NCBI GenBank assembly: GCA_040285825.1
Contig: JAUPSS010000003.1
Span: 2,418,001-2,482,000, forward strand
Reading direction: 5' to 3'
Source of the DNA: Eukaryota sp. TZLM1-RC
Lineage: Eukaryota; Protista; Metamonada: BaSk clade
Length of the DNA: 64,000 nt
Shown: piece after piece, positions 1 to 57,816 of the stretch
Layout of the letters: each line of letters opens with the position of its first letter
How positions within the stretch are numbered: position 1 is the first letter of the stretch
Notes under the pieces: model-generated
Told to the model about the DNA's origin: nothing
Databases searched by the model: none
Seen by the model: only the letters and a program-made list of their open reading frames with translations
Program-made: the position numbers and the translations under genes

Positions 1-8
1 CAAGAGAA

Positions 9-8171: not shown

Positions 8172-8389
8172 TGTGTGCTAATACTGAAGCGTTTGTAACA
8201 AAATTGACATTATATTTGAATATCCCCATTAATCAATTATTATCATCGGTTCCTCAATCGAATAAGAGAACCTTAAGCTAGACAGCAAGCAGATCCATAT
8301 TTTGTAAAGGAAATATTGGTTCAATGATAGTCGTCCCATTAGTTATGAACTAGTTCAATTGAGTGTGCATGTTCAATAAATATCAATTT

Positions 8390-18504: not shown

Positions 18505-20333
18505 TAATCGTATTTATTGAATTTGCACACTTGATTAAATTAAATCATAACTAATGGGACGACTATCATTAAACCAAGATTTCCTCTACAAAATCTTGAT
18601 TTGCTTGCTGTCTAGCTAAAGCTTCTCTAATTCGATTGAAAAACCGCGGTAATCTATTAATAATGGCAAATTGAATCCGTGAACGCCATAAAAAAATATC
18701 AAATCTTTTCATTGTTTTTTCTTTCACCATTTTTTGGAAGTCATCCAAAAAAGTTTCTGCTTCAACTGATAATCTTCCATTTATCGAAAATGGGAAAGCA
18801 ATAAAAACCAGCTGTGTATTTCTATCGACATTTGCATCTTCAATTTCTTTATCATATTTTCTATGTTTTTCTTTTGCTTTAAAAATCCAGAGCAGCCACA
18901 GGATTAAGTTTTCTTCTGTGAACCAAAGTATCGTTTGCAACATTACATGAGACAAAGTCAACAATAGCTTCAGAATTATCAATCCAATCACAGTATACAT
19001 CACCTCTATCATCAGAACCAAAATTATTCAGAGAAAGTGTTTCCTTCAGCAGGGGCTCTTTGATACACGATATCCTTGCAGTTTGTGCCATATTGAAAAC
19101 AGTGTCTCTAACAGCATCATGTAATGAAGAACGATAAGTTATCAATTTAGAGCAATTTAGAGCATGGCGCAAAGTGAGTTGAGGTGAATTCGAACAAATA
19201 CATTTTTCTTTTGATAATAATTGGTTAATGGGGATGTTCAAATATAATCTCATTTTTGTTACAAATGCTTCATTAGTGGCACACAATCCAAATCTTCGTG
19301 GTACAATGGTTACAAAAAGTGAAGAATCTGACGCCTTGTTTTCACAAACACCCTTTTCCAATAACAATGAGTGAAGATCTTGATTTAAAACAGCCGAGCT
19401 GCAAATATTATTATAAAGATCTTTTCATACATTCCAGTCAATCTTTTCTGTAATGTTCGAAGAGTGTACTTCAAATTTAAAACATTTTTTTCTGGAATAT
19501 TGCCATTGAATGATTGGGGAAAACATCGACCCCATTTTTCTACATCAATTCTTGAAATTTCTTCATTTAATGCAAAAACAGTGGAACTTTGCGTTGTCAT
19601 CAATAAATCTTCCCAATCTGCAAATCTTTCGGAAAACTCAAAGATTGCATTTCTGCATCCACCAACAAAAGCACACGAGGTAAGAATAGAAGCCTTCGTC
19701 CACCCTAAACCACCATAATGTGGACTAAGGTAAGCATGATCTGGAATTTGAAACATTTTACAGCCCAGTAATTTAGACAGAACTTTTGCACGTAACTCAT
19801 TAAACTTTTGAGCCAAAGGTCTAGTGACGAGAGGATTTGTAGATCGAAATATATGATTAAAATTGGAACTAAAACACAGTCTTATAATGGAAAATTTGAT
19901 GTGTTTTTTTATATCTAAATTCATCATTCGGTCAATTTTGTCAGAAATTGAGTTCAACTTTTCAAACAATTTTTTGGTAATTTCATCATTATTTCCTAAA
20001 AACGAACCCAAATGACGAATAGCATCAATTGAATATAATTTGGCTTGAATTTCAATATCATCAATTATTGTGGAAACTGGAGAATTCGATAACAAAACAC
20101 ATTTAAGTAAATTAAGTCGGAGACCAATTTTGGCAAATAATTCTTTAAAACATACAGTTGCTTTTTTCACAATATTTAAATCACCAATAAGCACAACATC
20201 ATCCATATATGCAATCATTTTTAGTGAAGGAAACATCTCTTGAATTTGCAGTAGAATAGGATGAATGGCCAAACAAAACAAAAGAGGTCCCAACGGATCT
20301 CCTTGCTTTACGCCACTTGATGAACTCAAAATG
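18505..20333 (-). mobile_element. 5'-truncated CRE-like non-LTR retrotransposon family A, inserted antisense into family B
   Basis: GVKQGDPLGPLLFCLAIHP, AYMDD, CIC...HALNC, RGDVYCD...VDF, EK.RKY; 12-bp TSD TTGGTAACATTG at 18493-18504 and 20334-20345. Confidence 0.95.
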
Positions 20334-28000: not shown

Positions 28001-28658
28001 GGATCAACAAAATGGAAATGGTGAATTCAGCGATCTCTTTTGGCTCAAATTGATGGTTGAACTGATCTTGGAAAGGTTCTACTTCAACACCTATTGATGC
28101 GTCAATTCCTTGAAGGAAGCGTCCTTCACATTTCTTCACTCCTGAGAAAGTGTTGAAATCAAACTCCAGGAAGAGCTGGGAAGAGGCTCTAAAGTAAGTA
28201 TCCTTAACAGTGATTGGCCCGAAGTTGAAGTCTTTTTCTGCACCTTGGCTACTGTCGTCATAGTTCCAGTTATAATCAAATGCCCACTTTGGATCGGTAT
28301 TTTGGTAGGAAAGCTTGAGGTAAGAAAACGCTGAGAGGGGTTCTACCTCAACAACAGTACATGGATTAGAGTTACAAACCTTTTTGAAAACGTGATCCTT
28401 ATTCACGTAATAAAATGCATCTTGGACAGACGCAGGATCTCTCAGCAAGGAGGTAAGCTCTTGATCTGTGAGGCGACGAACACTTCCAGCCACTTTGGCA
28501 GAAACTTTGAATTTGAGGTATTCCTCTTCAATGTTGAGGCTAAGACTACCGTCCTGATTTGCAGCATCGAGCAGAGAAACATAGCTTTCAAGACCAGGAA
28601 GGGTAGGGTTGGCAAGCGATAAGGCCAGAAGCACCAGTAAAAAGAGCACCGTATTCAT
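25062..28658 (-). CDS. Large single-pass type I surface protein (1198 aa), paralog of 9778-13386
   Basis: Signal peptide MNTVLFLLVLLALSLA; colinear with the paralog; DPSDPIDPTDPD stalk; TM FLVLTAIAVVVLFIGLFWCL. Confidence 0.88.
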   Translation of the reverse strand: MNTVLFLLVLLALSLANPTLPGLESYVSLLDAANQDGSLSLNIEEEYLKFKVSAKVAGSVRRLTDQELTSLLRDPASVQDAFYYVNKDHVFKKVCNSNPCTVVEVEPLSAFSYLKLSYQNTDPKWAFDYNWNYDDSSQGAEKDFNFGPITVKDTYFRASSQLFLEFDFNTFSGVKKCEGRFLQGIDASIGVEVEPFQDQFNHQFEPKEIAEFTISILLIPVNIRLRLGIEFSADVDSQMNIDSTFTLSNDNAELTMGYNDYNGFYHDYSFGKMHTSFERNIDGQADAKVELNVTLFMDLYSDSLIFHGSLLPALDLTVATAVCPEVLHWLVDFLLDVDFGMSDINIDVYVRKFNFETATSRRFPLIEHNIINNCADKVPVDVVASTMDETAPEEFILQLELERTSDGDDISNYYYHYGRTSTALCGDPWRCSIDDFLFVRPNTEIVIEIWRRRRLWFDSYVGRIRTSFSEIGQRTFTGTGRRTTIFVSKTKEIMPNTFISTDVVASESQLFQLGEYPEPDEWAKKRFIWGGSWFPTMKSFAAPSVRADSSEVMLEESRGRNLFQPFSRMLNISFTCTRQYRDLGIRFSSQDIDFNDIDQSSHSFTQYIKRPSSGTIELYENGFFSSPIITSVWLSLYPGHRVGNVFSQTGSTSDSSCTLRVEVQYPPVFVELYNDGFTGTYPVVFILSDDLSDAGCQSVIADGFYHISSVPSGEFYYVTGRWYDVVDEDKVSTTSLLVQNPAIIVSVVEQETCLTRYTFASIGDSFSAKRVAFILNVPRLSTTYVEIPSGMKGSFTRLQGEFWHSDIEFEAPAETGKLVIENPKATNFEAVVIYECQSAECSGTIEQPTHEVVLSSGSPYLAVSPYQTDFSTKSSCDECRVEYERYTDEDVHIITNDDSFTLTQSGHFMSPQCQFRVHTNPSVEGFVTFTSTCHFASGDEVTVPENGKANIDRSMVQLSDSNTGFVVFHKPCLYCNIEGSIYSGDYSVIFVKDFQSVDYYTVFSNGPAYTNKLLFKQWTPASIECETVGSVIECSLSSPNVYAPEIEDAEFQKTAIKLTSNGQNVAFIEARLETPSKLLIELSEAQEATIEVEFSSDTLLSDEEATGTSHYKDPSDPIDPTDPDNNQSMFLVLTAIAVVVLFIGLFWCLRKNKHAPDATEMTSVTTLPPVFNAPPVYPAFETNTPFVQDMESVPGTVV

Positions 28659-29049
28659 ACAGGTCAGTAGAGAATACACAAGTAAAATTTTCCAAAATAA
28701 TGTTGAATTCCCTCCACGTCACCACTGTACACAAGGTATCCCTCACTGACTGTAAACATCTGAAAACTCAGCAGGAAGAAGTTGTTCCAATCTTAGGTGT
28801 GTGCTGGTCCTTCTGAACTGTGCTGTTTGAACGGGTCACGAATCAACATTGGATTTTATACAACATTGATTTATCTGCTGATTGTGAAAATTTTGGTTTT
28901 GGTATTGCATTTTTCTCCTTTGTGGATTGAATTATTTTTGAAGATCCCTTGTCCTGTCTTTTGAAGAAAGAATTATTTGTCTAAAAGAATGTCATCTCAA
29001 GATCGGGAACAAGGAGAAGCGTACTAACAAAATTAATTATTATGAAATT

Positions 29050-30100
29050 GTTCTTCCATTAAACATTTCGAAATTTTTATTGATTGGTAGACACCCTGCT
29101 GAACTCGTTATTGATGATCTAACTGTTCCTTTCATCAACTATTGTGGATCAAAAATTAAGATTTTAAGGTCGTTATCTAGGATATTTTGATGAAATTCGA
29201 AATCAACTTTCATCTCTTTTAGCAAATTTTGAACAGGAATTCGCTTGTTCTTTCACATTTAAATAAAGAAACACATCTCAAATTCTTCTTTCTCAGAATT
29301 TGTCATTCAGGTAAATTTACTCATATCCTGCGATCAATCACACCAATAATATCTCTTGAATTTTGCAGAATTTTCAACGAATTAAGAGCAAAGTTTTTGG
29401 CTAATTTGCTTAATACTGTTTCTTCTTTTTGACGTAGTCATATTTTTTGTAGCACAAAAATAGGAGGCCTAGATTTTCACAAATCTAAATGTTTGTGTAA
29501 AGCTGCATTTATTGGTGGAGGCAAAAATTTCATTGTTGAAATTTTGAAACGTTTTCCTGAAAACCAACATTTAATAGAACATTGAAATTTTGAAACGTTT
29601 TCCTGAAAACCAACATTTAATAGAACATTGTGTTAGTGATTATTTGGTGTCTTTGCAGAATGCAATTGAATGCCTCTCTCCTCAATTATGGTCCAAATGC
29701 TTTCCTACCGATATTCAAGAAGTTCCACCCAGAAACTTGATTTCTTTAAGATTTGCATACGCCCAGTTGCAGAAAAAAATACCAAAAGTTTTTGAAAAAT
29801 GGGAATTTACTGTACGTCTTAGCTTAGCTAAGGAAAAGAGTCCCGTTTGTGCCAACATTTTAATTGATCTTTAGGAAAGTAGCTCCAGTTGTCTCATTTT
29901 ACAAAATTTAAATGTCTATGGTCTATTGTTAAATGACCATCAATGGACAACTGCCTTAAGAAAGAGGTGAAAATATTTTTGTGAAACGCCGTGCTGATCT
30001 AATTACCCTTGGGTCTGATGGTGTAATCAAAGTGGTTGATCTTGTCACTGCTGATGTTTGAAAGGATTCACCAATTGATTAAGCAAAATTAAATGTCCCA
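29050..30100 (+). mobile_element. Second decayed copy of CRE-like family B (internal fragment); boundaries approximate
   Basis: LKFFFLRICHSGKFTHILRS and KRFPENQHLIE match 17329-18030; 47-bp internal tandem duplication near 29535-29630. Confidence 0.88.
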
Positions 30101-30289
30101 TTGGTGATTGAACAATATTTGATCTCTGCATTTGCTTCGAGTGATCTAATTACCCTTGGGTCTGATGGTGTGATCAAAGTGGTTGATCTTGTCACTGCTG
30201 ATGTTTGAAAGGATTCACCAATTGATTAAGCAAAATTAACTGTCCCATTGGTGATTGAACAATATTTGATCTCTGCATTTGCTTCGAGT
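29995..30289 (+). repeat. 147-bp tandem duplication at the end of the family B relic
   Basis: TGATCTAATTACCCTTGGGTCTGATGG... starts at both 29995 and 30142. Confidence 0.9.
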
Positions 30290-31219
30290 CACGCTAGTTG
30301 AAGAATTGCAAAACTAATGCCTCTTGATTTTTTTTTAAATTTGAGGTGTATCGCATGTCAGTTTCCACAAATCCTCAATTTCTTTATGACACGACAGGTT
30401 ACTCGACAGGTTTTGATTACTCCACATTGAAGACAAAATTTGTGTCTTTTTGATGAATTATCAGGCATGTCTATCGACAGGGCTTGAGATAAAATCAAAA
30501 ATCACATCAAGCTTTCTAACTTTCATCTTGTAATGGTAGGTACATTGTTGGATTTTACAATCCTTTTTTTTTACAATCTTACATTGTGATTTTTGTGCAA
30601 GTATAACAAAGACACTTTATGTCCAAGATATGTCCAAGTTTCACCAAAATGACACATTGACAGAACCATAATTGGGTCAAGCTCAAGACATTCTATCCAA
30701 GAACAACAAAGTTGATCTGAAATGACCCAGAGTTTTAAAGTTGTGCAACGAAATACATTGCTATACCGTTGAAGTAGAAAAATTGATTCACTGTCTTCAT
30801 GACACATTTATTACTTCTCTTGTCTTTATCTTGACCATGGTTGAAGTGTACTGGTCTTCAAGATCATTATTGAAATGAAACTTTTGTGTCCACATTTTAA
30901 GAGAAGATGAGTTTCACGACGGATTTAATGAAATGAAAGGGCAAAATTGCTTTAATATCAACCAGCAGCGTTAACATTAAACCAATGTTAAGTGAGATCA
31001 ACGATGACAGATCGTCTCAACTCGAATTCCCGATTACCCGAAAAATGAATGTTCTTGTACTGTGGGGTAAAATGAATCATATAAAAGCTAAAAGGTATGG
31101 TAGGTATGGTAAAAACTAAGCGCGGAATATTCTCAAAAATCTAAAATCATCATTCAAAGGATTGATGTACTGAAACAGCAATAACGAAAACGAGTAAAGA
31201 TATGTACAGTGCAAAGCAT

Positions 31220-43910: not shown

Positions 43911-44925
43911 TGGATACGTGTAAGGCGAAAAAATGATTCCAGAATATTTGAATCGACTCATTAAGGACTTCACTAGTGAAACCTTGCTTTTGCACAAACA
44001 GTTTATAAAAGGTAACTACTAGTACCAACTATTCTCATTCTTAAATCTAAATCCAGCGCCACTGAAATCAACGGCAGAAATCCTCAATGAGAAGATATCT
44101 GAAGTCAGTCGAAGCAGGGAATTTCTGTCAAATATTGAAATAATAATTGAAAAAGTTTACTCAGTAAGTCACTGCAGGCATATGTTCAATGGCACTGATG
44201 GTGATGAAGTTTTCATAGTACAGTAAGTGATTTGTTATGACAACGTGTTTGTTTATAGAACTTTAGTTTTCAAGACCATTCGGACCAGAGTTGGACCGGA
44301 AAAGTAGAGTTTCTTCCATTTTTTTTCATTATGACTGGATATTTTGATGTTTATGTCTTCAGCAGGAAATGAACAACCTCAAAACTGTTGAAAGTTCAGT
44401 GTATTTGATTGATTATTGATAGGAAAAGTGTTTTTCTATTATTAGATTATTAATAGATTTTTTATTAGTATTATATATTACATTTTCAATTATCAATTAT
44501 TCTATTTCTATTATCATTTTGGATACATTATTTCTTCAGTATTGAAATCTGAAAAGTCCGACCAGATGTATGGTCTAACCATCCGTCCAACCATTCATTA
44601 CAATGTTTAGTGAACCATTTCAAACCTCCTTATTCAAAATCACGGTGACCAACCACCCATCTGGTTGATCAGACGTATTGTCTTAGTTCGGCCGATCTAG
44701 TTGATTTAATCCAATATTGACTGAAGTTATTTTTTAAAACCAATATCTGGAGACAACGCTTTTTTATTTTATTTTATTCTTATTTAAAAATTTCAGTTTC
44801 ATCTTGTGTTGAAACTGGCGACAGCACAATAGTGTGTGGTAATGAAAGGCCTCAGTATCTGTGTAGTAGATAGTTTTGGTAATTATTCCACACGAAAATT
44901 GATCGTGTATTTATGGAAATTTCCC

Positions 44926-47361
44926 ATGAACATCCAATGCTTTGAATGTAACTCTAGAAAGTCTCTTGTTGCCATAAACGACTCTTATCTTGCTTTGAGC
45001 TATGGTCACTCCATCATCATACACTCACATGTCTCAGACGATACCTTCACCATTGACCTCGCCTCTCCGGCTCTACAGATTGTCTTTTCTTCGCCAAATA
45101 CTCTCTTTACTCTTACTTCCACACATGTCCTTTCCCACACCATCTCCTCCTCTGAAATAACCCCCAACCACTCTATCCTACTGTCCACTATCTTTGCTGC
45201 CCTCCATCCCACCCCCAACCCTTTCTCTTTCAACATCTTCCCTTCACATCCTTCACTACTCTTCCTTTACTCAGACTCTACCATTATCATTATAGATCTC
45301 ATTCACCCTGTACGTATTGCCTCTATTCTCGACTCTCAAACTAATTCGTTTATTACTTCATCTAATCTAATTTTGGATCAAAATCTTTTAATTACTTCTC
45401 ATTCTGACGAGTCTATTTTGATTTGGGACATTTCAAAACCCTGTTTGTTATTTAATTATTTGTTTCCAAAGCCAATTATTTCAGTTAGTTTTGGTTGTAA
45501 TGACAGGTTTTTTGTTTTGACAAATGAAGGAAAAATTCGAATTTTTGAAATTTTAGCTGACAGAGTAGAGCTCACATCAACTGTAGATCTGAATATTTTG
45601 GCAATGGATCATGAAAAGCTCACCGACAAGTTGTCACCCTCAGTTGACATCCCTGTAGCTCTTGCAAAACCTTGGAAAGCTGCTACCACAATAGCTCAAA
45701 ATGATCACGCGATAGATCAAAATGATGACGTGTCATTTGGGAAAATAGAAGACTCTGTTCTCGATTTTCTTTGTATTAATAATTTTATTCCAAATCATTT
45801 TATCGTAATTTATTCCAATTATTTTTATTTATTAAATATTTTGTCAATGTCTATTGTTGATAAAGTAGAATTTCCGTCACAAGTCGTCCCCATTTCTTTT
45901 TTCAAATGTTATTTAAAAGAAAATTATTTAATTATAGCGTCTATTTCAATGACAAAAAGAGATTTGATTGATTTGTTCAAGGTTGATCTTGACATCTGTC
46001 AGTCAAAAATTTCAAATACATCAGCGCGTGTCACGAAATTTTCACCAAATGAATTGAGCTCAACTACATCATTACTTTCGATTACCCCACCACCCTTAAA
46101 ACAAATATCTCAACCTCCACGACCTATGCCACGTCATCGCCTCATAAATGCAGTTCAAAATGCTGGAAGAGTGAGCTCTTCGCGTCGAAATGAGAAGAGC
46201 TCACAGCCTCAAAATTTCCCAGTTGCCTTGAGAACAGGGAAAGTTAAAAGCAGCGGTTATGCTCAGCCTATCACCAAAAATAAGGTCAAAAATAAGGTCA
46301 AAAATAAGGTCAAAAATGTCGAGTCTTTCAAGGACCGGATTACCTATTCAGATGTAGATCATGGAGAATTTATTTTTTTGTATAATTTACCAGATTCCAG
46401 TAGTTATTTAAGAATTTTACCCTTTTCTGGAAATTCAAACTTGATTTCGTTATTATCTGATGGTTCAATCAATTTTAATTGTTTGAGAAAAAAGGAAAGT
46501 AATTGCCAATCATTTGTAGTTAATCAATCAATTTTGACTGACATGACGACACGTGTTGATCCTCAGAGTCCTGATTTGTCTTGTTTCAACTCTGAAATTT
46601 TAGGTTCCTGTTTAAACGGAAAATTTCATTTATTTGAACTGGACCAAAATTCCACGTCATCAGTCAAGAATTCTATGAAAATTTCTTCTCCATCTGTCAA
46701 ATTTTCCATGAGCTCGTTTATTAGCTCAAACGTTGTTGCTTTGGGCTCAACCAATATTTTAAATTTTTATTCTTTTTCTTTGGGATCTTGGGTTTCTGAC
46801 TTAAATAAGTTGGTTAACAGAAGCAATTCGCGAAATATTCATGAAACCAAATTTTCTTCAAATATTTCAGCTATTGCCACGTGGCCACGCCTCCAATCAA
46901 ATATGATGGTCATAGCAAACACTAATAAAGAACTAACTCTTTTTGATCTTCACACCTGTCAACACGTGTCAACGATCCCTTCTTGTCACTCACGAAATGT
47001 TTGCTCTATTTCCATCAATGACGGATATGGGAACTCTTGCCAACCAAATATCTTTGCAACCTCTGCCCCTGATTCATCCATCCGGTTATTCGACATTCGA
47101 ACCAATCAATGTAACCTTTTCCTCAATGCTCATCGTGCTAAAACTGGCTCTCCTCAAGTTAGCCTTGATCCTCTACATAGATTCATTTGCGTGGGGGGTG
47201 ATGATGCAGCTTGTGTTTATGATGTAAGAAATGGAAAAAAGGTTTTGAATCTACGAGCTAATAGACAACCAACTGTATTGACCAGTGCTTGTTGTTTTGG
47301 ACTTGGTGGTTCTTTGGTGTGTTCCGGTTCAGATAGTTTAAATGTATTTGGATTTAAGTAA
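44926..47361 (+). CDS. WDR27: WD40-repeat protein, WDR27-like (811 aa)
   Basis: Two WD40 blocks; linker PV...GKVKSSGYA and C-terminal FATSAPDSSIRLFDIRT..C...AH...P..RFICVG.DD..CVYD recall WDR27. Confidence 0.72.
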   Translation: MNIQCFECNSRKSLVAINDSYLALSYGHSIIIHSHVSDDTFTIDLASPALQIVFSSPNTLFTLTSTHVLSHTISSSEITPNHSILLSTIFAALHPTPNPFSFNIFPSHPSLLFLYSDSTIIIIDLIHPVRIASILDSQTNSFITSSNLILDQNLLITSHSDESILIWDISKPCLLFNYLFPKPIISVSFGCNDRFFVLTNEGKIRIFEILADRVELTSTVDLNILAMDHEKLTDKLSPSVDIPVALAKPWKAATTIAQNDHAIDQNDDVSFGKIEDSVLDFLCINNFIPNHFIVIYSNYFYLLNILSMSIVDKVEFPSQVVPISFFKCYLKENYLIIASISMTKRDLIDLFKVDLDICQSKISNTSARVTKFSPNELSSTTSLLSITPPPLKQISQPPRPMPRHRLINAVQNAGRVSSSRRNEKSSQPQNFPVALRTGKVKSSGYAQPITKNKVKNKVKNKVKNVESFKDRITYSDVDHGEFIFLYNLPDSSSYLRILPFSGNSNLISLLSDGSINFNCLRKKESNCQSFVVNQSILTDMTTRVDPQSPDLSCFNSEILGSCLNGKFHLFELDQNSTSSVKNSMKISSPSVKFSMSSFISSNVVALGSTNILNFYSFSLGSWVSDLNKLVNRSNSRNIHETKFSSNISAIATWPRLQSNMMVIANTNKELTLFDLHTCQHVSTIPSCHSRNVCSISINDGYGNSCQPNIFATSAPDSSIRLFDIRTNQCNLFLNAHRAKTGSPQVSLDPLHRFICVGGDDAACVYDVRNGKKVLNLRANRQPTVLTSACCFGLGGSLVCSGSDSLNVFGFK

Positions 47362-47630
47362 GTTTTTGGGTTTATTTGGTATATTCTTTTAGGAATTTCT
47401 TTCATTCGAAAATTCTTTCTTAACTTTTTCTCATCAATTTATTTCTGTTGTCAATTTAAGCAAGAAATTTTCATCTTTGAAATTTTCATCTTTGACTGTT
47501 GGTCAGTTAAGATAAGATAAGTCTAACTTCTTTTTAACTATTTTTTGATTTTTACGTGATTCAATTATATCAAGAATAGACCGGGAATTTTTGCCCAAAA
47601 TGAATAAAAACTACATATGTTACTTATGCG

Positions 47631-48150
47631 TATTATCTCGTGTTACATAGGTACATTATCTCGTGTTACATAGGTACATTATCACGTGTTACTCGTTTTG
47701 TCCAGCTAGATTTCATTAAGTAGATTTCATTATCACGTGTTACTCCTTTTGTCCAACTAGATTTCATTAAGTAGATTTCATTATCACGTTTTGTCCAACT
47801 AGGTTTCATTAAGTAGATTTCATTATCACGTGTTACCTAGCTAGATTTCAATTAACTAGATTTCAATAAAGTAGGTTTCAATTAACTAGATTTCTATAAA
47901 GTAGGTTTCAACGTTTCCCAAAAATGAGAAAAGTAGGTTTCAATGAATTTCAAAATTAAAAAGTAGGTTCCAATGAATTTCAAATTTAAGAAGTAGGTTT
48001 CAATGAACTTCAGATGAATTAACAGATTTTAATTTTGACTTTATGATAATAGTTAGTTAGATTTCAATGAACTTCGACTGAATTAACAGATTTTAATTTT
48101 GACTTTATGATAATAGTTAGTTAGATTTCAATTAACAGATTTCAATGAAT
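47631..48150. repeat. Complex tandem repeat array built around a TAG(A/G)TTTCA core
   Basis: At least 15 core copies embedded in successive 23-, ~51-, 14-, ~30- and ~60-bp units; ATCACGTG motifs in the left part. Confidence 0.9.
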
Positions 48151-48182
48151 TTCATCAAATGTAATTAATTTAGTTTTAATAA

Positions 48183-48695
48183 ATGAGTTTTACTAAAATC
48201 ACTGTCAAAGCGATTAGAAAAAAGATTGGTCTTAGTAGACAATGTACTATGCAGAATTTTTTCGAAAACAATCCAGAAGGAACCTATCAAATAGAAGGAT
48301 TAGAATTTATTCGAATTAAAAAGGGGAATAAAGTAAATTATTTATATCGAACTATTACGGATGAACCTCAAGATTATCCACAGGAAGTTGAAGTTGAAAT
48401 TGATTATCAACAAGAACTAAAAGAATATGATGAAGAAAATATTAGACTGCATAAAGAAAATGAGAGTTTGAGAGAAGACTTAAAGAAAAGTCTAGCATTA
48501 AAACCAAAGACTGTTGAAGTTGAAAAGATAGTTGAAAAAGAAGTTCCAGTCGAAGACGAAAAGATAGTTGAAAAAGAAGTTGAAGTCGAAAAGATAGTTG
48601 AAGTTCCAGTCGAAAAGATAGTTGAAGTTGAAAAGATAGTTTATATAAATCGTTCAGATTTTTCATATCAACCACTTATTTTTGAAGAAGATTAG
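48183..48695 (+). CDS. Element-encoded orphan protein with coiled coil and VEKIVE(V/K) repeats; probably originally extended to 48787
   Basis: 170-aa ORF; GAAGAAGATTA repeated twice at the stop shifts off a frame reading YDVHYGSDRTYREKETVIEDFGDFIRF*. Confidence 0.7.
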   Translation: MSFTKITVKAIRKKIGLSRQCTMQNFFENNPEGTYQIEGLEFIRIKKGNKVNYLYRTITDEPQDYPQEVEVEIDYQQELKEYDEENIRLHKENESLREDLKKSLALKPKTVEVEKIVEKEVPVEDEKIVEKEVEVEKIVEVPVEKIVEVEKIVYINRSDFSYQPLIFEED

Positions 48696-48884
48696 AAGAA
48701 GATTATGATGTACATTATGGTTCAGATAGAACTTACCGAGAAAAAGAAACTGTGATAGAAGATTTCGGTGATTTTATTAGATTTTAAAGTATTAAAGGTA
48801 GAATTCAACATCAGTTTGACCAAATGTAATAAAGGTAGAATTCATCATCAATTTGACCAAATGTAATAAAATTAGGTATTAAAA

Positions 48885-49325
48885 ATGCCTTATCAATCAG
48901 GAATATTTGAACAGAAAAACTTTATCATTGCTAATGTCAATTATCTTGGAACGAGAATTAAAGCATCAGACATTGTGAAACAATATGGTCAATCAGCCTA
49001 TAATAAGATTAACAAAAATTTTGAAAATATTTATTCTTTAGGAACGATTTATCGTTTCGGTTCCTCAATCTTTACTGCCATTCCATCAGGAGTGAAAACA
49101 AGAGAGAAAATTTATTATGTTTTAGAGGAAGGTGAAGAGATTGATAGTGAGGAAGCTACTTATGCTGAACGATATGAATTTATTAAAGAACAAATGGAAA
49201 AGACAATTGAATTTCTTCATTTCTTGAAAAAGGTGTCAAAAGAAAAAGAGATTGACTTAATTGATGGACATTTGAATGAATTTAAAAGAACTATTAGAAA
49301 TATTCCAAAGCTTCCCAAAAAATGA
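48885..49325 (+). CDS. Element-encoded orphan protein (146 aa)
   Basis: ATG-initiated ORF sharing an upstream motif with 48183; converges on the PolB 3' end. Confidence 0.7.
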   Translation: MPYQSGIFEQKNFIIANVNYLGTRIKASDIVKQYGQSAYNKINKNFENIYSLGTIYRFGSSIFTAIPSGVKTREKIYYVLEEGEEIDSEEATYAERYEFIKEQMEKTIEFLHFLKKVSKEKEIDLIDGHLNEFKRTIRNIPKLPKK

Positions 49326-49429
49326 AATTTTTCATCAAAAATGATTTCTCCAAAAATGAATTTTTTTCTCCAAAGAATGAAATTTTCAACAAAAAATAAT
49401 TTTTATTCATTATTTATTTTTTTAATTTT

Positions 49430-51453
49430 TCAAATTTTTACTTTTCTAATGATATGTTTGTTGGTAGATACTTCATATTTTTCATATTTAAAATTACCAG
49501 ATAAATCAAATTCAATCTCTTTTCCATCATAAAGCGAATTCCATAATTGATAAAATCCTAATTTGTTAATTTTTATTTCTCTAGCTTTTTCAGATATTCC
49601 TTTCAACCGTTGATGTTGTTCTTCATTTTCATCTTCAATCACATAATAACCATTAATAGTTTCAATGTTGGGAAGTCCCTCCTCATCTTTTCCTAATGAT
49701 TTCATTCCGACTAGAACATCAGTGTAAATTTTCTTTCCTAAAATAATTGATGTGATGGCTCCAGCCTCACCTTTTCCACTATATTTGAAATCAGTATGAA
49801 ACTGTCCCATTTCTTTTCCAACTAATTTTCTTTTATAAGTTTCTTGATATTTTTTAGTTAGTTGTGAAAACTTAATATGCATACTATCAGTGTCAAGATA
49901 AGTAGGATAAATTCCTAAATCATCAGCCAAGCAAATGACTTCATTCATTATTCTTTTAGACATTGATAAGATATGAACTCCACAATGAGCAGAATTTTGA
50001 TGAGAGAAAGTACCATCTCTTATTTTGAATAATGTTCTTGGAATTTTTTCTCCTTTATCATCTTTTAAATCTGATGACATTTCTTGCCAACTAACAATCC
50101 TTCCATAATTTTCAGTTAAGAATTCATCAAAATCTCCATCAAAAATGAGATTATGTTTATCATTTGGTTTTAGAATAGTCTTTCCATAAGCAGCATTCAT
50201 CAATAATTTATAGACTTGTTCAAGAGGATTTTCATCTTTCTTCTTTTCCTTTCTAGTCTCAAACATCTTATTAACAATTTCACAAACTTTATCATTATAT
50301 CCATTCCAGTAAACACCTCTAATGAATTCAAATTCAATTTCGTGATACTTAATGAAATCTTCAAGAGCAATTTTATCAACAGTCACTGTGATTGAGTTTT
50401 CTAATTCAGAAGAACCAACCCACTCTCTATTTACATTATTTTTCTTAACAGCAATTAAAGGATGAGCTCTAGTCTTGTTAATTTTAGTAATCTTAATCTC
50501 AGCAATAAAGTATAAATGACCTTTAAGAATATCATTCAATTCATCTTTAGAATTAATGAAACTAGCCAAACCTGTTGGATAACCATTCACTCTAACAATA
50601 GCAGAGGGATATAAAGAAACTGCATCAAAATCACTAATGAAATCATTGATAATTTTTTTGTTATCGATATCTTTTTTTGTTGCTTGGAAATAATGTTTCT
50701 CATTTAGAAGAGATAATACTCTTCCACCTACAATAGCTTGAGAATAAAACTCTCTTAAAGAACCGTGAACTTTAGAAACCTTATCAAAAGCTCCAAACTT
50801 ATCCATAATTCTATGAGATAAAGATGAAATAGTTAATGAATTCCATATTTCTATTTCCATTTTCTATTATTTAAAATTTCGTTATTGAATATGTTAAGTC
50901 CATCTTCTAAAACAGTAACATCTCTATTATTATAATAACGACAATAATCCTTTGCATTGAAAGTTCTACCGAAATTATAGTTTTGAATAAATTCTCTTCT
51001 TTTATTTTCAGGAACAAAATTAGCTACATAATTCAAATCGTTTGAAATCGTTTCATCTTGAAATAATAGATTATAATATTCATAAGGGTAAATTTCTTTT
51101 GCTTCTTTTAATCCAAACATTTTAGGAAACTTTCGAAGAGGTTCTGGTATCATTTTATAACTGTCGCTAAATTCAATTCTTCTTCCTCTATTTACTCCAC
51201 GAATGGAATAAACTTGACCATCTTTTTCAACTAATTCGACATATTTTAAATGGTTCAGTAAGAAGCTAATATCATATTTAAGATTATGGAAATAAACCAC
51301 TAATTTGGTTTTATGTTTCGGAAGTAATGATAATTTCTTTAAGAAGACATCAACACACTGTCTTCCAAAATACAAAGAAATACAAGAAATACACTTGTCT
51401 GCTGTACATAATAAACTATGTTTTATTTTTTCAAAGTTGTCTTTGGGATGCAT
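49430..51453 (-). pseudogene. polB: Protein-primed family B DNA polymerase, frameshifted near 50855 and 5'-truncated
   Basis: ExoII YFHNLKYD, DSYKMIP..L..FP..FGL, ExoIII Y...DV.VL, motif A DFDAVSLYPSA, motif B KLLMNAAYGK, motif C YLDTDS, KKIY, KG. Confidence 0.93.
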
Positions 51454-51789
51454 AAAACAATGACTCTTTTTCCAACAATCACTGCTGTTAATAGGCTCTA
51501 GTCTAATCTTCTGAACTAAATCGTCACAGTTTCGAAATATTATCGCAACTTTATTTGATATATTATTGATTTATAAAACAAGCTTCTGCAAAGAAGTTTT
51601 AAAACAATAGAATATTTTTGGTGGATAATCACAACCAATTTCCCTTTTTTATATTTGACAGACCAGTTACCATTGTACAATTATGAATTTCAAGGTACCT
51701 TTCATAACATTAAAGAAACAACGAATCTTTGTGAAACAAATATAAAATTGTATTCTTCGACTGTAGTGAAAGCAGATGACAATGTTGGA

Positions 51790-51837
51790 GGAGGTAGACC
51801 AGGGTGGAGGTAGACCAGGGTGGAGGTAGACCAGGGT
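51790..51837. repeat. Perfect 16-bp x3 tandem repeat GGAGGTAGACCAGGGT
   Basis: Three identical units read directly from the sequence. Confidence 0.95.
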
Positions 51838-52263
51838 ATTTGTTTAAATGCACAAGATAGGTTTAGAAGAAGAGGAACAAAAACATCTAAAGCTGAATTA
51901 GTTGATTAAATAGTCGTTTTCTTCCAGTCTTCACAAACAAAGCCCAAAATATATCTTGAAGTAAAACGAAGAACTCTCCTTTACACTAGGGTTACAACTA
52001 TAGTAAGTAAGAACACACTATTAGGACACAATTAGGAACAATAATCACCAGAATGCAAACCAACAAAATCAATATTCCAGACGTAATTGTAAAAGCAAAG
52101 TAAGAACATAGATTAACCCAGTGTTATGTAATAAGTCTGTTTGTAATCCCCCTTTTACTCTTTACTGTGGTGATAAAGTAGTTTTAAAGACAAATCCAAT
52201 GAATTTGCTTAAATAATATCCTCAAAACACTTTGTCTCACGTTTCACATTTCCCGTTCTTTTA

Positions 52264-55200
52264 ATGTCCAGGCCGCTCCTCTTCAAGGACCCTGTTGAAC
52301 TTCCACTTCCACCTCAACGTGCGCCTTCTTTGTTATGGAAACTCCTTCTTTTCTTTCTTAACCTCTTTCTTCTTCCTTTGTCCTTTCTACGTTCACCAAA
52401 ACGTACTCAACAGCGTCACTTCTTCTCAACCTCCTCTGGACTCTTCTATCATTTTCACAAGTCTATCCATACCATTACTTCTTCATCACCTACCATTACC
52501 TTCTCCTCTCCCGTTCTCTCTCTATGTGTACACAACAACTACGTTTTTGTTGTCACAAAGTCATTTATCTTTTGTTTACACCAATCAGATTTCTCTATCA
52601 AATACAAGGTCAAAACTCCGAGAAAACTCAAGACCTGCCAGCAAGTGATGACGTGGCGTGACGACAGAATTGTTATTTTTACCTCCAACAACATTGGATT
52701 CTTTCAAGTGACTGAAGACGATCTTTTATTATCAAACATCATCAAACTTTCACATGTGGCGGTCACGTTTACAACTGACTGTGATCACGTCATGGCAGTC
52801 GGACCTTCCTTTTGTGATTCAATCCATCATTTTAATTTGACCATCATTGACTATGATTATAATCAAAAAACAATGTCCACGTGTCAAGATTTATGCAGAC
52901 GGTCAAAAACCCTCGTGCTTCCATCAAAATTGATTAGTTTCCAAAATTTTATAGTTTTATTTTTTTCAAATGGTAATTCTATTAAAATTGAAATTGAAAA
53001 TGATCTACTCCTCACCCACTCGATTCCTGTTCAACTGACCTCAATGGATCATTTGGAGGACCATGTCATTTGCGGTCTCCAAAAGTCAAGCAATCAGGTC
53101 ATCCTTTTTGACCTTCAATCAAATTTGATTGTTGATAAGTTTGATGATTGTTATGAGCAAGTGAGGGTTTTGTGCTTGCCGAGCTCTACTGTTGAGAGAC
53201 AATCAATTTTGATAGTTTCCGATGATCATAGTCCAATCATTTTTGACCGTGTTGACGAATCTGAAGCTGTCAAACAGGCAGTTTCCGAAGATAATTTCAA
53301 TTTGGCTTACCAAATATGTGAATCCTTTGAGTTGACCATGCTTCGACAGTGGGTCATTATTCAAGAGTTTTTTGATCTTGTGACACGTCATCAATACAGA
53401 AATTTGGAAGAGTTGATCTCTGTTCACTTGTCACGAAATGTTGACACTGCTGAGATTGTAAAAGAGATCAATCTCGAAAAATTTCACACAATTGACGAAA
53501 TTTTGATATTTTTGAAATTTTTGTCTGATCGTCTTGCCTCTGATGATGACGTTACCGACAGTCAAGTACCCTTTCCTCTCAATCAAGAAGTCAATCTATT
53601 TGATTGGGTTGGACATGTTATCACGAGAGCTGAAATTTTTAATGATCTCTATTCTGACGATTACACATTTGAAACATTCAAATCTTTTTGTCAGGTTTCA
53701 GAGTCTGAGCTTTTTTCCAAAATTTCAGCGAATTTTTCATTACCCTCCATTGAAATATTCATCAAAAGTTTCAATTTTACTACACAAATGAGGAAAGAGT
53801 TGTTAACTTCCTTTTCAGCTCATATTGATGACGTGTCAGCTGACGTTTTTGACCGACTTTTGACCCTTATTGACTCTCCAATGAATTTTGTCCATGATTT
53901 ATTAAATTCAAATTCAAGTCAATTTTTGAAAAAAATACTAGACATTCTTCCAAATTTTTGTAAAGAAGACGAACAACTTCAATCGAAAATTGTGTCACTT
54001 AATGAATATTTCGACCTTTTGCCCAACTCTGAGCTCTTTTTTTCTGATTTTTGTCGTTTCTCCGTGCAAGAAAAGATAAAATTAGCTTTTCAACAACAGT
54101 CTGTTGATTTTTTGATTGATTACATTGATTTTGACCAATTAAAGTCACTTGTTCCTTCCTATTTGAGCCAAGAAATTCAATCTGTCAATAAGGAAGAATT
54201 TTTCGAAATATTGAAGTATTTCTCTACTACAAAAATTTTTGTTCATTTTTCGACAGAAGTTACTGATCTCGTCAATGAAATTCTTGATTTTTGGTCCAAT
54301 CAAATTGACGATGTTATGATTGATTGTTTAATTACCGTATTAAGCAAGATTGAATCCAAAAGGACTACGATGTTGATGGAAAATCTATCACTCTGTGAGC
54401 TCTTTGTGTTAAATAATGTCAAATTTTCCTATGTGGACATCCTCAATATTTCAAAACGATCCCAATTGATTCGTACTACCTTGAATTGCGTTGACTCTCC
54501 AACAGTTTTATTGTCCTGGGTTGTTTCTTTAAATAATGGAAGATTATTGAATATTATTTTAAATGATTTAATCTTTATCTTTATTACTAAAGGATGGGGT
54601 AGTTTTCTACTGGAAAATGGAAAAATTTTGGAAGATGCTTTAGCTGATACCAAAACGAGCTCTTCTTGTAAAGTTGATATTCTGACACGTGTACATGAGC
54701 TGTTCGTGACCTCTATTTATGAACTATGCTCTTCTACCAAATTTTCATTGACACCGTCTCAAATTGAACTCTTTTCGACCATTGAAACTGATATATCTGA
54801 AATATTCAAATGTTCAAATCTGACCAAAGAATCTCTGTTTTTGTCATTTGTCCGATCACATCAATCAGATTTGATTGATTGGGAAAAGTGTCAAAACGAG
54901 TTGACTTTAAGCGACCTTCGCCAAGATTCTACCTTGCTATGTTCCTTTTGTTGCCACTTGGTTTTGAAAAAATCCAATCGAAATTTTGATCGCTCTTTTT
55001 CTAATAAAATGCTGAAATTCTTGACTGATATCTCCTTGTCAATCACTTTTCCAATCATTTTTGATCATTTTGCATGTACACTTTTACCACCATTACTTTA
55101 TAACAAAAAGCCTGAAATTTTTGCCGATGCTTGGGAATATTTCATGACTTGTAGTCTTTCAAAGTCTGATGACGTTGACAGATGTCAAATTTGTTATGTC

Positions 55201-57816
55201 AATGAACTCTTTTGGGATAAGAAGGGATCACTGTTTGAAATATTGGTCGACAGTCTGGAAATAATCACAGACCCAGACCTTGTCGAGGCAATTATCAAAA
55301 ATTTCTTTAAATCACATCATCATTTTCAGCTATCACGTGATAATTATGACCTTTTAGAGTCAAAACTTTTCGAAGTTTCACTCTGTAGATTTACTAATTC
55401 TGAACTGTCAAGCTCAAAAACTCTGATGGAAATCAATCAAAGTTCATTGACTTTGATTGACCAACTTTCTCCTTTCCCATCACCAGATCTGGCCAATTTC
55501 TTTTCGGACATGATTTTTTCAAATATTTTGAATTCTGATGTGGAATTGATGTCGATTCCACAAACAGTGGAATTAAGTTCAGAACAAATTTTCAAGTTAT
55601 TCCCTTTGTTGAATCCTTGTCTCATTCAACTGAAAATTTTGTTAAACAATCAAAATTTTGGTAGTGATCTCTTTACAATTTTGGTCTCTACTCTGGCCAA
55701 ATATTCCAAAATTTTGTCAATTGATGCATACAAGCTCAAAAAACACACTCTAACAGCTCATTTGACCAGCCTTGATTATTTCATCTCCAAATTTTTGTCA
55801 AATTTTCCTGCTGTTGTAACTGAAATTTTGGAAATGGCTCGAACTTTTTTCAATTCTTTATTAGACACCAAGTCCAACAAATCACTAAATTTGTTTTTAA
55901 AATCCAATCCGAAATTTTCGTCATGTCAGTTAATCAATCTATTCCAAAACAATCAAATTTCCAATCAATTCAGGACCATTCTCACGTCATCAGCTTGTCC
56001 ATGTTTTGTGTTTGCTTCGTATTTTAAGCCTGAAAATTTGGATTCAATCATTGTTGATTGGAAAAATAACGTGATTGAGGATGAAGTTGCTGTCAAAAAA
56101 TTGGTCGTATCATGTTATGTCACTCTTGAGCTCGAATCTGAATTACGTGTTGTCAGGGACTTTAGTAGAGATCAGTCAAAAAATTTATCAAAAATTTCAT
56201 CTCCACAGAAAAATTCCTTAAATTCATTGGCATTACTAGCACTGGATTACCCCAATAGCCACCTATTTGAATTTTTGAAGAGTCTGCTTCATCAGGTCAA
56301 AAATGAAGGTCAAAATGATGATGTGTCAGTAGTCTCCGTTAGTCAAGATCATTTGATTAATCTGTTAAATCATGATGTTTGGGCTAATTTAATTTTTGGC
56401 TCTGAAGAATCCAGCTGGCTACAGTTGGTTGATGTTGTGCTAAATTTTGATCAATCAAATGTGATTCCTTTAGTAGAGCTCATGACAAGTGTCACTGAGC
56501 TGGACAATGCACCTCAGTTACCAAGTGTCAAAATTTTGTTATTGAAATGTTTGGAAAAACTCACAGAAGTCGATATGATTGAATTTTTGATTGAAACTGT
56601 TTTTGACCGTTTGACTAGTGACGACTGGTCTTCTGTTGTCAATCAAATCACGTCATGTTCAAAATTTTCGCCATCTGTAGTCCAATTTATTATTCAATTT
56701 TTGCAAACCAGTATCAGTGACTCTGACAACCTCAAAATTTCCTTGAATGAGCTTGAGTTGATCTCTTCTTGGGCTTTTGAGTGGGATAAAATTTTGCAGA
56801 ATTTCAATGAATTCTATTTCAACGCTTTATCTCGCAAATTTTCATTATGTGAGCTCATTTATGATCTCTTGAGTAGTTTTGCAATCAATTCTGATGACGT
56901 TCTTGAACTTATTGCCTCAAATCCATTCGACACTGTGGATTCTGTTGAGGAATTTTTGATGGATTTGTTGGAGACGAAAATTTCAACAGGTTGTGACCAG
57001 CTCACCCAAAATTTCATTCAAAATTTGGCTAATTTCTCGTTTCTTCATGAAAATTTGGTTCAAATCGCTCGAACCGCTCACTATCCTATGGCTCTACGTA
57101 AAATGGTGTTCTCAGAACTTCAAAATCAATCAAATTCTCAGTCAGTTTTGACCCATGGTGACGTCAGCATGATCCAGGAATTGGAACTATTAGAAAAATT
57201 TGACACTCATCCACTACGTGAGTTTTTGTTACCATCAGTTGTAGAAAAATGGGCTTCTGAACCTCAAATTTTTGTTAATCTGTCAGAAAAGCTCAATTTG
57301 ATCACATCATATTCTGAACTTTCGCCGATCTTAATCACCTATCAATCAGTTTTTGATGACATACTTGATCAACATGTGGAAGTTTTTACCAAAATTTTCG
57401 ATGTGTTTTTTGAAATTTTCGACGATCCCACTACTATTACAGATATACTATCTTTCCAAATTTTTGAATGTGGGAAAATTTCTTTGCCAAAACTTAAAGA
57501 ATTGGAATCTTATCAGAAAATACCAGATGAAATTAAATTTTTTGTTTGTGTTTTCTTTGACAAAGTAGAGCTCACACTGGCAAAGAGAACAGAATTATTT
57601 GAAAATTTGTTTGTTTCGTTCTTGAAAAAGGGTTTTGCCAACAAATTTTGTGGACACTTGTTTAGTTTGATGTTGCAGATAACCTCAAAATTTGAAATAT
57701 TCGATGTTGTGATTGAAAATTTGGATAGGGGTATTGAAAAGTCAATGATGGTTATGGCTCAAAAGAGATCACGTTCAGAAATATCCCGAAATATGTGTTG
57801 TGTTGACAATCTCTAA
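52264..57816 (+). CDS. Large beta-propeller + alpha-solenoid protein (1850 aa), NBAS/Sec39 (or Rod/KNTC1)-like
   Basis: Beta-rich N-terminal ~330 aa, then AVSEDNFNLAYQICESFEL and RAEIF...Y.FETFKSF...IEIF motifs resembling the NBAS/Rod junction; long helical remainder. Confidence 0.55.
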   Translation: MSRPLLFKDPVELPLPPQRAPSLLWKLLLFFLNLFLLPLSFLRSPKRTQQRHFFSTSSGLFYHFHKSIHTITSSSPTITFSSPVLSLCVHNNYVFVVTKSFIFCLHQSDFSIKYKVKTPRKLKTCQQVMTWRDDRIVIFTSNNIGFFQVTEDDLLLSNIIKLSHVAVTFTTDCDHVMAVGPSFCDSIHHFNLTIIDYDYNQKTMSTCQDLCRRSKTLVLPSKLISFQNFIVLFFSNGNSIKIEIENDLLLTHSIPVQLTSMDHLEDHVICGLQKSSNQVILFDLQSNLIVDKFDDCYEQVRVLCLPSSTVERQSILIVSDDHSPIIFDRVDESEAVKQAVSEDNFNLAYQICESFELTMLRQWVIIQEFFDLVTRHQYRNLEELISVHLSRNVDTAEIVKEINLEKFHTIDEILIFLKFLSDRLASDDDVTDSQVPFPLNQEVNLFDWVGHVITRAEIFNDLYSDDYTFETFKSFCQVSESELFSKISANFSLPSIEIFIKSFNFTTQMRKELLTSFSAHIDDVSADVFDRLLTLIDSPMNFVHDLLNSNSSQFLKKILDILPNFCKEDEQLQSKIVSLNEYFDLLPNSELFFSDFCRFSVQEKIKLAFQQQSVDFLIDYIDFDQLKSLVPSYLSQEIQSVNKEEFFEILKYFSTTKIFVHFSTEVTDLVNEILDFWSNQIDDVMIDCLITVLSKIESKRTTMLMENLSLCELFVLNNVKFSYVDILNISKRSQLIRTTLNCVDSPTVLLSWVVSLNNGRLLNIILNDLIFIFITKGWGSFLLENGKILEDALADTKTSSSCKVDILTRVHELFVTSIYELCSSTKFSLTPSQIELFSTIETDISEIFKCSNLTKESLFLSFVRSHQSDLIDWEKCQNELTLSDLRQDSTLLCSFCCHLVLKKSNRNFDRSFSNKMLKFLTDISLSITFPIIFDHFACTLLPPLLYNKKPEIFADAWEYFMTCSLSKSDDVDRCQICYVNELFWDKKGSLFEILVDSLEIITDPDLVEAIIKNFFKSHHHFQLSRDNYDLLESKLFEVSLCRFTNSELSSSKTLMEINQSSLTLIDQLSPFPSPDLANFFSDMIFSNILNSDVELMSIPQTVELSSEQIFKLFPLLNPCLIQLKILLNNQNFGSDLFTILVSTLAKYSKILSIDAYKLKKHTLTAHLTSLDYFISKFLSNFPAVVTEILEMARTFFNSLLDTKSNKSLNLFLKSNPKFSSCQLINLFQNNQISNQFRTILTSSACPCFVFASYFKPENLDSIIVDWKNNVIEDEVAVKKLVVSCYVTLELESELRVVRDFSRDQSKNLSKISSPQKNSLNSLALLALDYPNSHLFEFLKSLLHQVKNEGQNDDVSVVSVSQDHLINLLNHDVWANLIFGSEESSWLQLVDVVLNFDQSNVIPLVELMTSVTELDNAPQLPSVKILLLKCLEKLTEVDMIEFLIETVFDRLTSDDWSSVVNQITSCSKFSPSVVQFIIQFLQTSISDSDNLKISLNELELISSWAFEWDKILQNFNEFYFNALSRKFSLCELIYDLLSSFAINSDDVLELIASNPFDTVDSVEEFLMDLLETKISTGCDQLTQNFIQNLANFSFLHENLVQIARTAHYPMALRKMVFSELQNQSNSQSVLTHGDVSMIQELELLEKFDTHPLREFLLPSVVEKWASEPQIFVNLSEKLNLITSYSELSPILITYQSVFDDILDQHVEVFTKIFDVFFEIFDDPTTITDILSFQIFECGKISLPKLKELESYQKIPDEIKFFVCVFFDKVELTLAKRTELFENLFVSFLKKGFANKFCGHLFSLMLQITSKFEIFDVVIENLDRGIEKSMMVMAQKRSRSEISRNMCCVDNL

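What the first reader, a model, noticed from the sequence alone, without database searches (positions are those of the whole stretch)
48156..48887. Shared position-fixed upstream motif in both orphan ORFs of the PolB element (candidate viral promoter)
Seen: CAAATGTAAT ends exactly 17 nt before the ATG of both ORFs (48156-48165 to ATG 48183; 48858-48867 to ATG 48885). The spacers also align (TAATTTAGTTTTAATAA vs AAAATTAGGTATTAAAA, shared TTAG), although the two proteins look unrelated. Before ORF2 the motif sits in a 37-bp tandem duplication. Known: virophage genes carry conserved upstream motifs read by a giant-virus transcription apparatus. Inference: an element-specific promoter, possibly helper-virus dependent, which also supports both ORFs being real genes.
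Basis: partly seen in the sequence, partly recalled or inferred. Interest (0 to 1): 0.75.

Follow-up and report, generated by a model that had tools for sequence, protein, structure and literature searches.

The report
Duplicated promoter block in decayed provirus
Two small neighbouring genes in a broken virus-like insertion in a eukaryote's genome share the same stretch of about 55 bases just before their start codons, likely a copied promoter, and nothing found here ties it to a giant helper virus.

Summary
CAAATGTAAT ends 17 nt before both ATGs; the ATG-anchored 38 nt are 29/38 identical, against at most 23/38 for 2,398 other ATGs. The shared piece is really a ~55-nt block (AGAWTTCA, 11-13 nt, CAAATGTAAT, AT-rich leader) that stops at the ATG and fills nearly the whole ORF1-ORF2 spacer. 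Its first element is repeated 15 times in a terminal repeat array. The locus is a ~4-kb remnant of a Polinton-like virus or virophage: two orphan ORFs and a split, 5'-truncated protein-primed PolB, with no capsid gene. The two ORFs may be distant paralogues (p 0.002-0.22), so the two copies are not independent evidence. Helper-virus dependence is unsupported: no known giant-virus motif matches, and the TCTA signal enriched in PolB relatives is absent. TTTCA, the array's core, is the top 5-mer upstream of host genes (8 of 10, family-wise p 0.007), which points weakly to host RNA polymerase II. One unrelated virophage has ATGTAA before 8 of 13 ORFs, which keeps the helper reading alive. No other copy and no RNA data were available. 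New member of a known kind; modest interest.

The parts
47632..48144 (+). Tandem-repeat array at the left end of the element (periods 15, 23, 30, 42, 51, 64), with 15 AGRWTTCA units and 18 sense-strand TTTCA, none antisense; likely a terminal (inverted) repeat whose partner is lost
   Evidence: no inverted partner found; terminal arrays also seen in relatives L082, L083, L059, L048, L146
48131..48185 (+). Shared upstream block, ORF1 copy: AGATTTCA at -46, TTTCA at -33, CAAATGTAAT at -27, 17-nt AT-rich leader, ATG
48156..48165 (+). CAAATGTAAT, copy 1; holds an ATG-TAA at -24, in frame with the ORF
48183..48695 (+). ORF1, 170 aa orphan: N-terminal alpha/beta part, coiled coil, VEKIVE repeats; its stop follows an 11-bp tandem repeat and another frame stays open to 48787, so this copy looks interrupted
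48789..48870 (+). 37-bp tandem duplication (34/37 alike) that copies AGAATTCA and CAAATGTAAT (extra copy 48821-48830)
48828..48887 (+). Shared upstream block, ORF2 copy: AGAATTCA at -48, CAAATGTAAT at -27 (48858-48867), 17-nt leader, ATG
48885..49325 (+). ORF2, 146 aa intact orphan, possibly a distant paralogue of ORF1's N-terminal part
49430..50860 (-). Protein-primed PolB, polymerase part (PF03175, E 3e-18), convergent with ORF2
50851..51453 (-). Protein-primed PolB, exonuclease part in another frame (PF03175, E 5e-9); the first ~400 residues of full-length relatives and the gene's upstream region are missing
44842..47361 (+). Flanking host gene, WD40 repeats
52264..57816 (+). Flanking host gene, 1850 aa, host-like GC3 (not scanned against Pfam)

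Best explanation
The motif is the middle of a ~55-base block that lies in front of both small genes of a broken virus-like insertion, likely copied once from the inner end of its terminal repeat array and likely kept as a promoter read by the host's RNA polymerase II. Shown: the block (AGAWTTCA, 11-13 nt, CAAATGTAAT, 17-nt AT-rich leader), its end at the ATG, its 15-fold repeated first element, the broken PolB. Inferred: one duplication of promoter plus gene (or promoter alone) made ORF1 and ORF2; the coding parts diverged while the block stayed ~76% alike; the TTTCA-type element is the host's initiator-like signal and CAAATGTAAT an element-specific neighbour. The copy is a relic and may no longer be transcribed.
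For: Similarity ends at the ATG: 29/38 before, 10/30 after. Upstream identity 76% against 47% over the 87 aligned codons. The spacer between ORF1's longer frame and ORF2 is 97 nt, 60 without the duplication, and the block fills it. Among 2,990 gene pairs in 93 related elements only 3 score above this pair: a terminal-repeat copy, a paralogue pair and an adjacent non-homologous pair with 37/38 identity, so such blocks arise by copying. TTTCA is the commonest 5-mer within 60 nt of 10 host starts: 8 of 10, antisense 1 of 10, shuffle mean 3.0, family-wise p 0.007; the full AGRWTTCA is at 2 of 9 host starts, p 0.002. Protist initiators have a CA core near the ATG (Trichomonas HCAHW, PMC7370421 passages; oomycete YCAYTYY, PMC3599244 passages). 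A nuclear-replicating lytic PLV is on record (10.64898/2026.06.19.733378 passages).
Against: Only two genes, adjacent and perhaps paralogous. ORF2's block has AATTCA, no exact TTTCA. The host test has n = 10, four starts were re-chosen by hand, the four alone are not significant (3 of 4, p 0.11), and TTTCA is also 100-160 nt upstream in 4 of 10; the motif was shortened after looking at host sequences. A start at the AGAWTTCA would put an ATG-TAA in the leader, which is awkward for a plain promoter. Mismatches are not shown to avoid the 10-mer (p 0.41). PolB relatives mostly carry giant-virus-like TCTA/TATATA signals, and one virophage has ATGTAA before 8 of 13 ORFs.
Confidence: 0.4

Rival explanations
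1. Helper-virus promoter: AAATGTAAT is a promoter read by a giant virus's transcription apparatus, with the start site in the AT-rich 17 nt, as for virophages.
For: PolB relatives include virophages (10 loci with Sputnik-type capsid) and PLVs (15 dereplicated loci). Their upstream regions have TCTA at -28..-12 in 123 of 726 ORFs (7.7% of 34,687 non-start ATGs), peaking at -21..-16, close to where TGTA sits here (-23). Virophage L059/L174 has ATGTAAT before 4 of 10 ORFs (expected 0.25; 0 of 2,000 shuffles; 71 elements tested) and ATGTAA before 8 of 13 in the full contig. EMALE types other than type 4 carry other putative motifs (PMC8547959 passages).
Against: AAAATTGA, the mimivirus late pattern (each with up to 1 mismatch), AT-flanked TCTA and TATATA are absent from the 100 nt before both ORFs. 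CAAATGTAAT precedes 0 of 726 relatives' ORFs; TGTAAT 13 of 726 against 1.15% background. In L174 the position varies from -20 to -66 and its PolB is not close to this one (rank 48 of 142). 41 IMG/VR matches to the full pattern hit an ORF start once (base rate 3.7%). No capsid gene to say virophage.
Confidence: 0.25
2. Neutral relic: a local duplication of gene plus upstream DNA left two similar stretches, and the 10-mer has no special role.
For: A 10-base run is expected 41% of the time at this identity. Local tandem duplications are common here: 34 in the window, in host and element DNA alike. The ORFs may be paralogues. The copy is decayed.
Against: Neutral decay would not leave non-coding DNA at 76% while coding DNA falls to 47%, nor end the similarity at the ATG, although the proteins' aligned parts are offset by 19 residues.
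Confidence: 0.2
3. Translation gate: transcription starts at the AGAWTTCA element and the ATG-TAA inside CAAATGTAAT is a start-stop element 24 nt before the main ATG that damps translation.
For: ATG-TAA at -24, in frame, in both genes. Start-stop elements are described as repressive 5' UTR elements in human transcripts (PMC13338717, search listing and start of abstract only).
Against: Two cases only; ATGTAA is below expectation before relatives' ORFs (28 of 726, 39.9 expected); no start site is known.
Confidence: 0.1
4. Chance match in AT-rich DNA.
For: The region is 72% AT; the 10-mer alone is not enriched in the window.
Against: 0 of 200,000 shuffles and 0 of 2,398 other ATGs reach 29/38; the AGAWTTCA-gap-CAAATGTAAT pattern, with mismatches allowed, has 5 hits in the window, 3 of them these sites.
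Confidence: 0.02

Closest known systems
Endogenous mavirus-like elements (EMALEs) of Cafeteria burkhardae and their type-specific upstream motifs (PMC8547959, passages)
   Same: Low-GC viral insertion in a eukaryote genome, a conserved motif within 100 nt of start codons, decay by truncation
   Different: No TCTA, no capsid, ATPase or integrase gene, no inverted-repeat pair; motif seen before two genes only; the other EMALE motifs are in a figure supplement that I could not see
PLV Gezel/PgVV-14T with the mimiviral early motif AAAATTGA (10.1101/2022.07.28.501842, passages)
   Same: Small DNA virus genes with own short upstream signals; motif has a TG core after A's
   Different: AAAATTGA is absent even with 1 mismatch, and WWWWWTGW is not met at the motif; helper dependence was shown for PgVV, not here
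Uncultured pPolB-bearing PLVs and virophages L042-L173
   Same: PolB mostly 30-40% identical; terminal tandem arrays; copied upstream blocks before neighbouring genes (L088, L122)
   Different: Their signal is TTTCTA/TCTA plus TATATA; this PolB is a long branch (0.95) without a supported sister group (0.36); ORF1 and ORF2 have no match in them
Protist initiator elements (Trichomonas HCAHW, oomycete YCAYTYY, passages)
   Same: TCA core on the sense strand within tens of bases of the ATG, in host genes and in the element
   Different: No start site mapped; host lineage not determined; multimerised 15-18 times in the array

Membership tests
Polinton-like virus / virophage (Polisuviricotina) remnant | Protein-primed family B polymerase related to those of PLVs and virophages | tested here: met
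   PF03175 in two pieces; 52 + 80 related loci, some with A32 ATPase or Sputnik-type capsid
Virophage | Virophage-type major capsid protein | tested here: not met
   Profile from 10 relatives' capsid proteins finds nothing in the window at E <= 1; the element is truncated, so this speaks for this copy only
Polinton-like virus | PLV-type major capsid protein and A32 packaging ATPase | tested here: not met
   Profile from 19 putative PLV capsid proteins finds nothing; tblastn of all relatives' proteins hits only the PolB region
Polinton-like virus / virophage | Terminal inverted repeats, 15-30 kb length | tested here: inconclusive
   About 4 kb, one repeat array, no inverted partner within 47000-53000 or elsewhere in the window; truncation explains this
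CroV-late / mavirus promoter | TCTA flanked by AT-rich DNA upstream of the start | tested here: not met
   Absent from 100 nt before both ORFs
Mimiviral early promoter | AAAATTGA upstream of the start | tested here: not met
   Absent with up to 1 mismatch; one WWWWWTGW match at -88 of ORF1 only
Mimivirus late / asfarvirus-like late promoter | [AT]8T[AC]TN4[AT]5[AG]TA[TG]A or TATATA | tested here: not met
   Absent (patterns)
Giant-virus-dependent element | Expression only on co-infection | not testable with these tools
   Needs infection experiments
Host polymerase II initiator | TCA-core motif enriched near host starts and at the transcription start | tested here: inconclusive
   TTTCA 8 of 10 host starts, family-wise p 0.007; start sites not mapped; ORF2 has only AATTCA

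The most novel reading that the evidence does not exclude
A long-endogenous lineage of PolB-bearing viruses that gave up giant-virus promoters, built its terminal repeat from a multimer of the host's own initiator-like motif, and placed a fixed, in-frame AUG-UAA start-stop gate 24 nt before each gene.
Probability: 0.08. Interest if true: 0.6.

Novelty: new member of a known kind. Interest (0 to 1): 0.25.

Why it matters
How most Polinton-like viruses are transcribed, by the host or by a giant helper virus, is open (10.64898/2026.07.28.741278, start of abstract). An upstream block that joins a host-like motif to an element-specific one gives a clear either/or test by mapping 5' ends. But this is one decayed copy with two genes, and conserved upstream motifs in such elements are already described, so alone it settles nothing.

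Tried and rejected
Other copies: none in the window; ORF2 finds only itself among 5.8 billion proteins of 80-256 aa and 1.84 billion representatives, ORF1 residues 1-112 only itself; the 120 best full-length PolB hits listed, of 1,332, are 34-41% identical; these cover annotated proteins only. Related-locus scans with PolB alone and with ORF2 found none. Sequencing runs: no RNA holder listed, one DNA run with share 0.08; its contigs gave only short scattered pieces on 44000-49400, no evidence either way; the right part of the element was not examined with reads. IMG/VR pattern scans: 41 and 6 stretches, chance-like. ORF1/ORF2 as pieces of the PolB N-terminus: profile of 211 N-termini scores 0.3 bits, rejected. 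Structure: single-sequence models of low confidence (pLDDT 60 and 56); no Foldseek match with E <= 0.001 in BFVD, best VIA Z 3.2; Atlas hits under 0.9, some helix-turn-helix clusters, a lead only. PolB tree does not place the element. More virophages for an ATGTAA test: L059's capsid found only its own contig, and the 8-sequence capsid alignment was too divergent to search with. Per-element motif search: 7 of 71 relatives at p < 0.05, little above chance. Linear-plasmid ATNTGA (recalled motif): before ORF2 only and also before 2 of 9 host genes. Literature: 0 papers hold 'virophage', 'promoter' and 'TGTAAT' together; motifs printed only as logos in figures would be missed.

Full report
Setting. 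The window is eukaryotic: WD40, RING/B-box, RCC1 and MFS genes, an LTR retrotransposon at 1-5000, and a proteasome alpha gene with a 30-nt GT-AG intron. The host lineage was not determined. Between a WD40 gene (ends 47361) and a 1850-aa gene (starts 52264) lies a low-GC stretch of about 4 kb: a tandem-repeat array (47632-48144), ORF1 (48183-48695), ORF2 (48885-49325) and, on the other strand, a protein-primed PolB in two frames (49430-50860, 50851-51453; PF03175). Eight full-length relatives align only from residue ~405 on, so the PolB start and its upstream region are gone. All four coding pieces have GC3 0.17-0.22, six host genes 0.30-0.34.

The observation. CAAATGTAAT is at 48156 and 48858, 17 nt before each ATG, with a third copy at 48821 in the 37-bp duplication. 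ATG-anchored identity is 29/38; the best of 2,398 other ATGs is 23/38 and 0 of 200,000 shuffles reach it. The 10-mer alone is not enriched in the window (15 matches with up to 1 mismatch, 13.2 expected). A gapped alignment extends the shared piece to about 55 nt: AGAWTTCA at -46/-48, an 11-13-nt gap, CAAATGTAAT at -27, the AT-rich 17 nt, ATG; after the ATG identity is 10/30. At 29/38 identity a perfect 10-base run occurs 41% of the time, so the data define a block, not a 10-mer. ORF1's stop follows an 11-bp tandem repeat and another frame stays open to 48787; the spacer before ORF2 is then 97 nt, or 60 without the duplication, and the block fills it. The 37-bp duplication is not special: 34 adjacent duplications of 10 nt or more lie in the window.

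Are the two genes independent? BLASTP says unrelated (E 0.53). A local alignment runs colinearly over 87 residues with 24 identities and an offset of 19; shuffle p 0.035 (0.14 with local shuffles), and unrelated proteins among 748 controls score up to 68 against 46. Semi-global alignment gives p 0.002-0.12 with full shuffles and 0.006-0.22 with local shuffles, best for a length of 90 chosen after looking; 1-4 of 1,480 real controls reach that score. Low-confidence models agree on three helices and disagree on a sheet. Paralogy is about even odds. If true, the block is a copied promoter, and its 76% identity against 47% in the aligned codons argues for constraint. Among 2,990 gene pairs in 93 related elements only three outscore this pair: a terminal-repeat copy (L082), paralogues (L088) and adjacent non-homologous ORFs with 37/38 identity (L122).

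Relatives. An alignment of 45 PolB proteins found 52 viral and 80 metagenomic loci; 109 of 132 remained after removing near-duplicates. Ten carry a Sputnik-type capsid protein and 15 a putative PLV capsid protein (the PLV seeds were chosen by size and position beside an A32 ATPase, not by a Pfam hit). Neither profile hits the window, and all relatives' proteins hit only its PolB. In a tree of 142 sequences this PolB is a long branch (0.95) with sister support 0.36, and replication modules switch often among PLVs (10.64898/2026.06.19.733378, passages), so virophage versus PLV is open. Before relatives' ORFs, TTTTCT (68 of 540, 14.7 expected) and TATATA (174, 77.8 expected) are enriched, and TCTA peaks at -21..-16 (123 of 726), like the CroV late/mavirus motif (PMC5294985 and PMC8547959, passages). 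CAAATGTAAT precedes 0 of 726. One virophage, L059/L174, has ATGTAAT before 4 of 10 ORFs (0.25 expected, 0 of 2,000 shuffles, 71 elements tested) and ATGTAA before 8 of 13 at -20 to -66. This is the only support for a viral ATGTAA promoter class, and it is a short AT-rich match in an element that is not a close relative.

Known giant-virus motifs. AAAATTGA, the mimivirus late pattern, AT-flanked TCTA and TATATA (from; passages) are absent from the 100 nt before both ORFs. The full pattern matched 41 stretches in IMG/VR, 1 at an ORF start, against a base rate of 3.7%.

A host-like element. AGRWTTCA occurs 15 times in the 607 nt before ORF1, twice in the spacer, 0 times in ORF1 and 17 times on both strands of the 47.6 kb to the left; TTTCA 18 times sense, 0 antisense in the array. 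The same AGRWTTCA precedes 2 of 9 host ORFs (p 0.002) and RTTTCA 5 of 9 (six patterns tried). With 10 starts, four of them re-chosen for a signal peptide or a conserved N-terminus and one uncertain MFS start dropped, TTTCA is the top 5-mer (8 of 10; antisense 1; 100-160 nt upstream 4; family-wise p 0.007), but the four new starts alone give 3 of 4, p 0.11. TGTAAT precedes 0 of 9 host ORFs. ORF1's last 60 nt have three RTTTCA, ORF2's only AATTCA. Protist initiators have such a CA core (passages). This is suggestive, small-sample evidence that host polymerase II reads the block. The motif itself holds ATG-TAA at -24, in frame, in both genes: if transcription starts at the upstream element the leader has a start-stop element; if it starts in the AT-rich 17 nt, CAAATGTAAT is promoter DNA. 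One 5'-end experiment separates these.

Verdict. Real, non-random, and best read as a copied promoter/leader block of a decayed PLV- or virophage-type insertion. Cis-regulatory role about 0.75; host polymerase II 0.4, giant helper 0.25, neutral relic 0.2, start-stop gate 0.1. No second copy, no whole genome and no RNA data could be examined. Conserved upstream motifs in endogenous virophages and PLVs are described (passages); the other EMALE motifs and the Halocafeteria motifs are in figure supplements that I did not see and could include this one. New member of a known kind; interest 0.25.

Noticed in passing
L174 (= L059), whole 14,485-bp contig: Virophage with Sputnik-type capsid protein has ATGTAA, mostly followed by an AT-rich AAATAAAA-like run, before 8 of 13 ORFs including PolB; a candidate promoter class not matching TCTA or AAAATTGA.
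   Followed up: partly
L042-L173: TTTCTA/TCTA at -21..-16 plus TATATA is a common upstream signature across these uncultured pPolB elements, strongest in PLV-type ones (40 of 167 ORFs against 5 of 87 in virophage-type; 8 of 10 in L078, 8 of 11 in L062).
   Followed up: partly
window, host gene starts (e.g. 31981, 40593, 43961, 52264, 63457): TTTCA on the sense strand within 60 nt of 8 of 10 host starts; candidate host initiator.
   Followed up: partly
window 1-5000: LTR retrotransposon: gag with zinc knuckle, protease, RT-RNase H, integrase zinc domain, split over several ORFs.
   Followed up: no
window 9777-13117 and 25325-28659: Two inverted paralogues, 91% identical over 3.3 kb, of a ~1200-aa protein with a signal-peptide-like start and no Pfam match.
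   Followed up: no
window 6000-8400, 16300-20300, 29000-30300: Several decayed copies of a reverse-transcriptase-bearing repeat (weak RVT_1 hits), with near-perfect internal tandem duplications of 147 and 156 bp.
   Followed up: no
window 51787-51837: Three copies of a 16-bp GC-rich unit near the likely right edge of the element, where GC rises to host level.
   Followed up: no
window 47680-47835 and L082:438-600: CACGTG (E-box-like) occurs three times in the outer part of the array, and CACGTG-rich repeats also fill the terminal repeat of relative L082.
   Followed up: no
L122:7335-7999: Two adjacent small non-homologous ORFs with 37/38 identical upstream bases, a second case of a copied upstream block.
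   Followed up: partly
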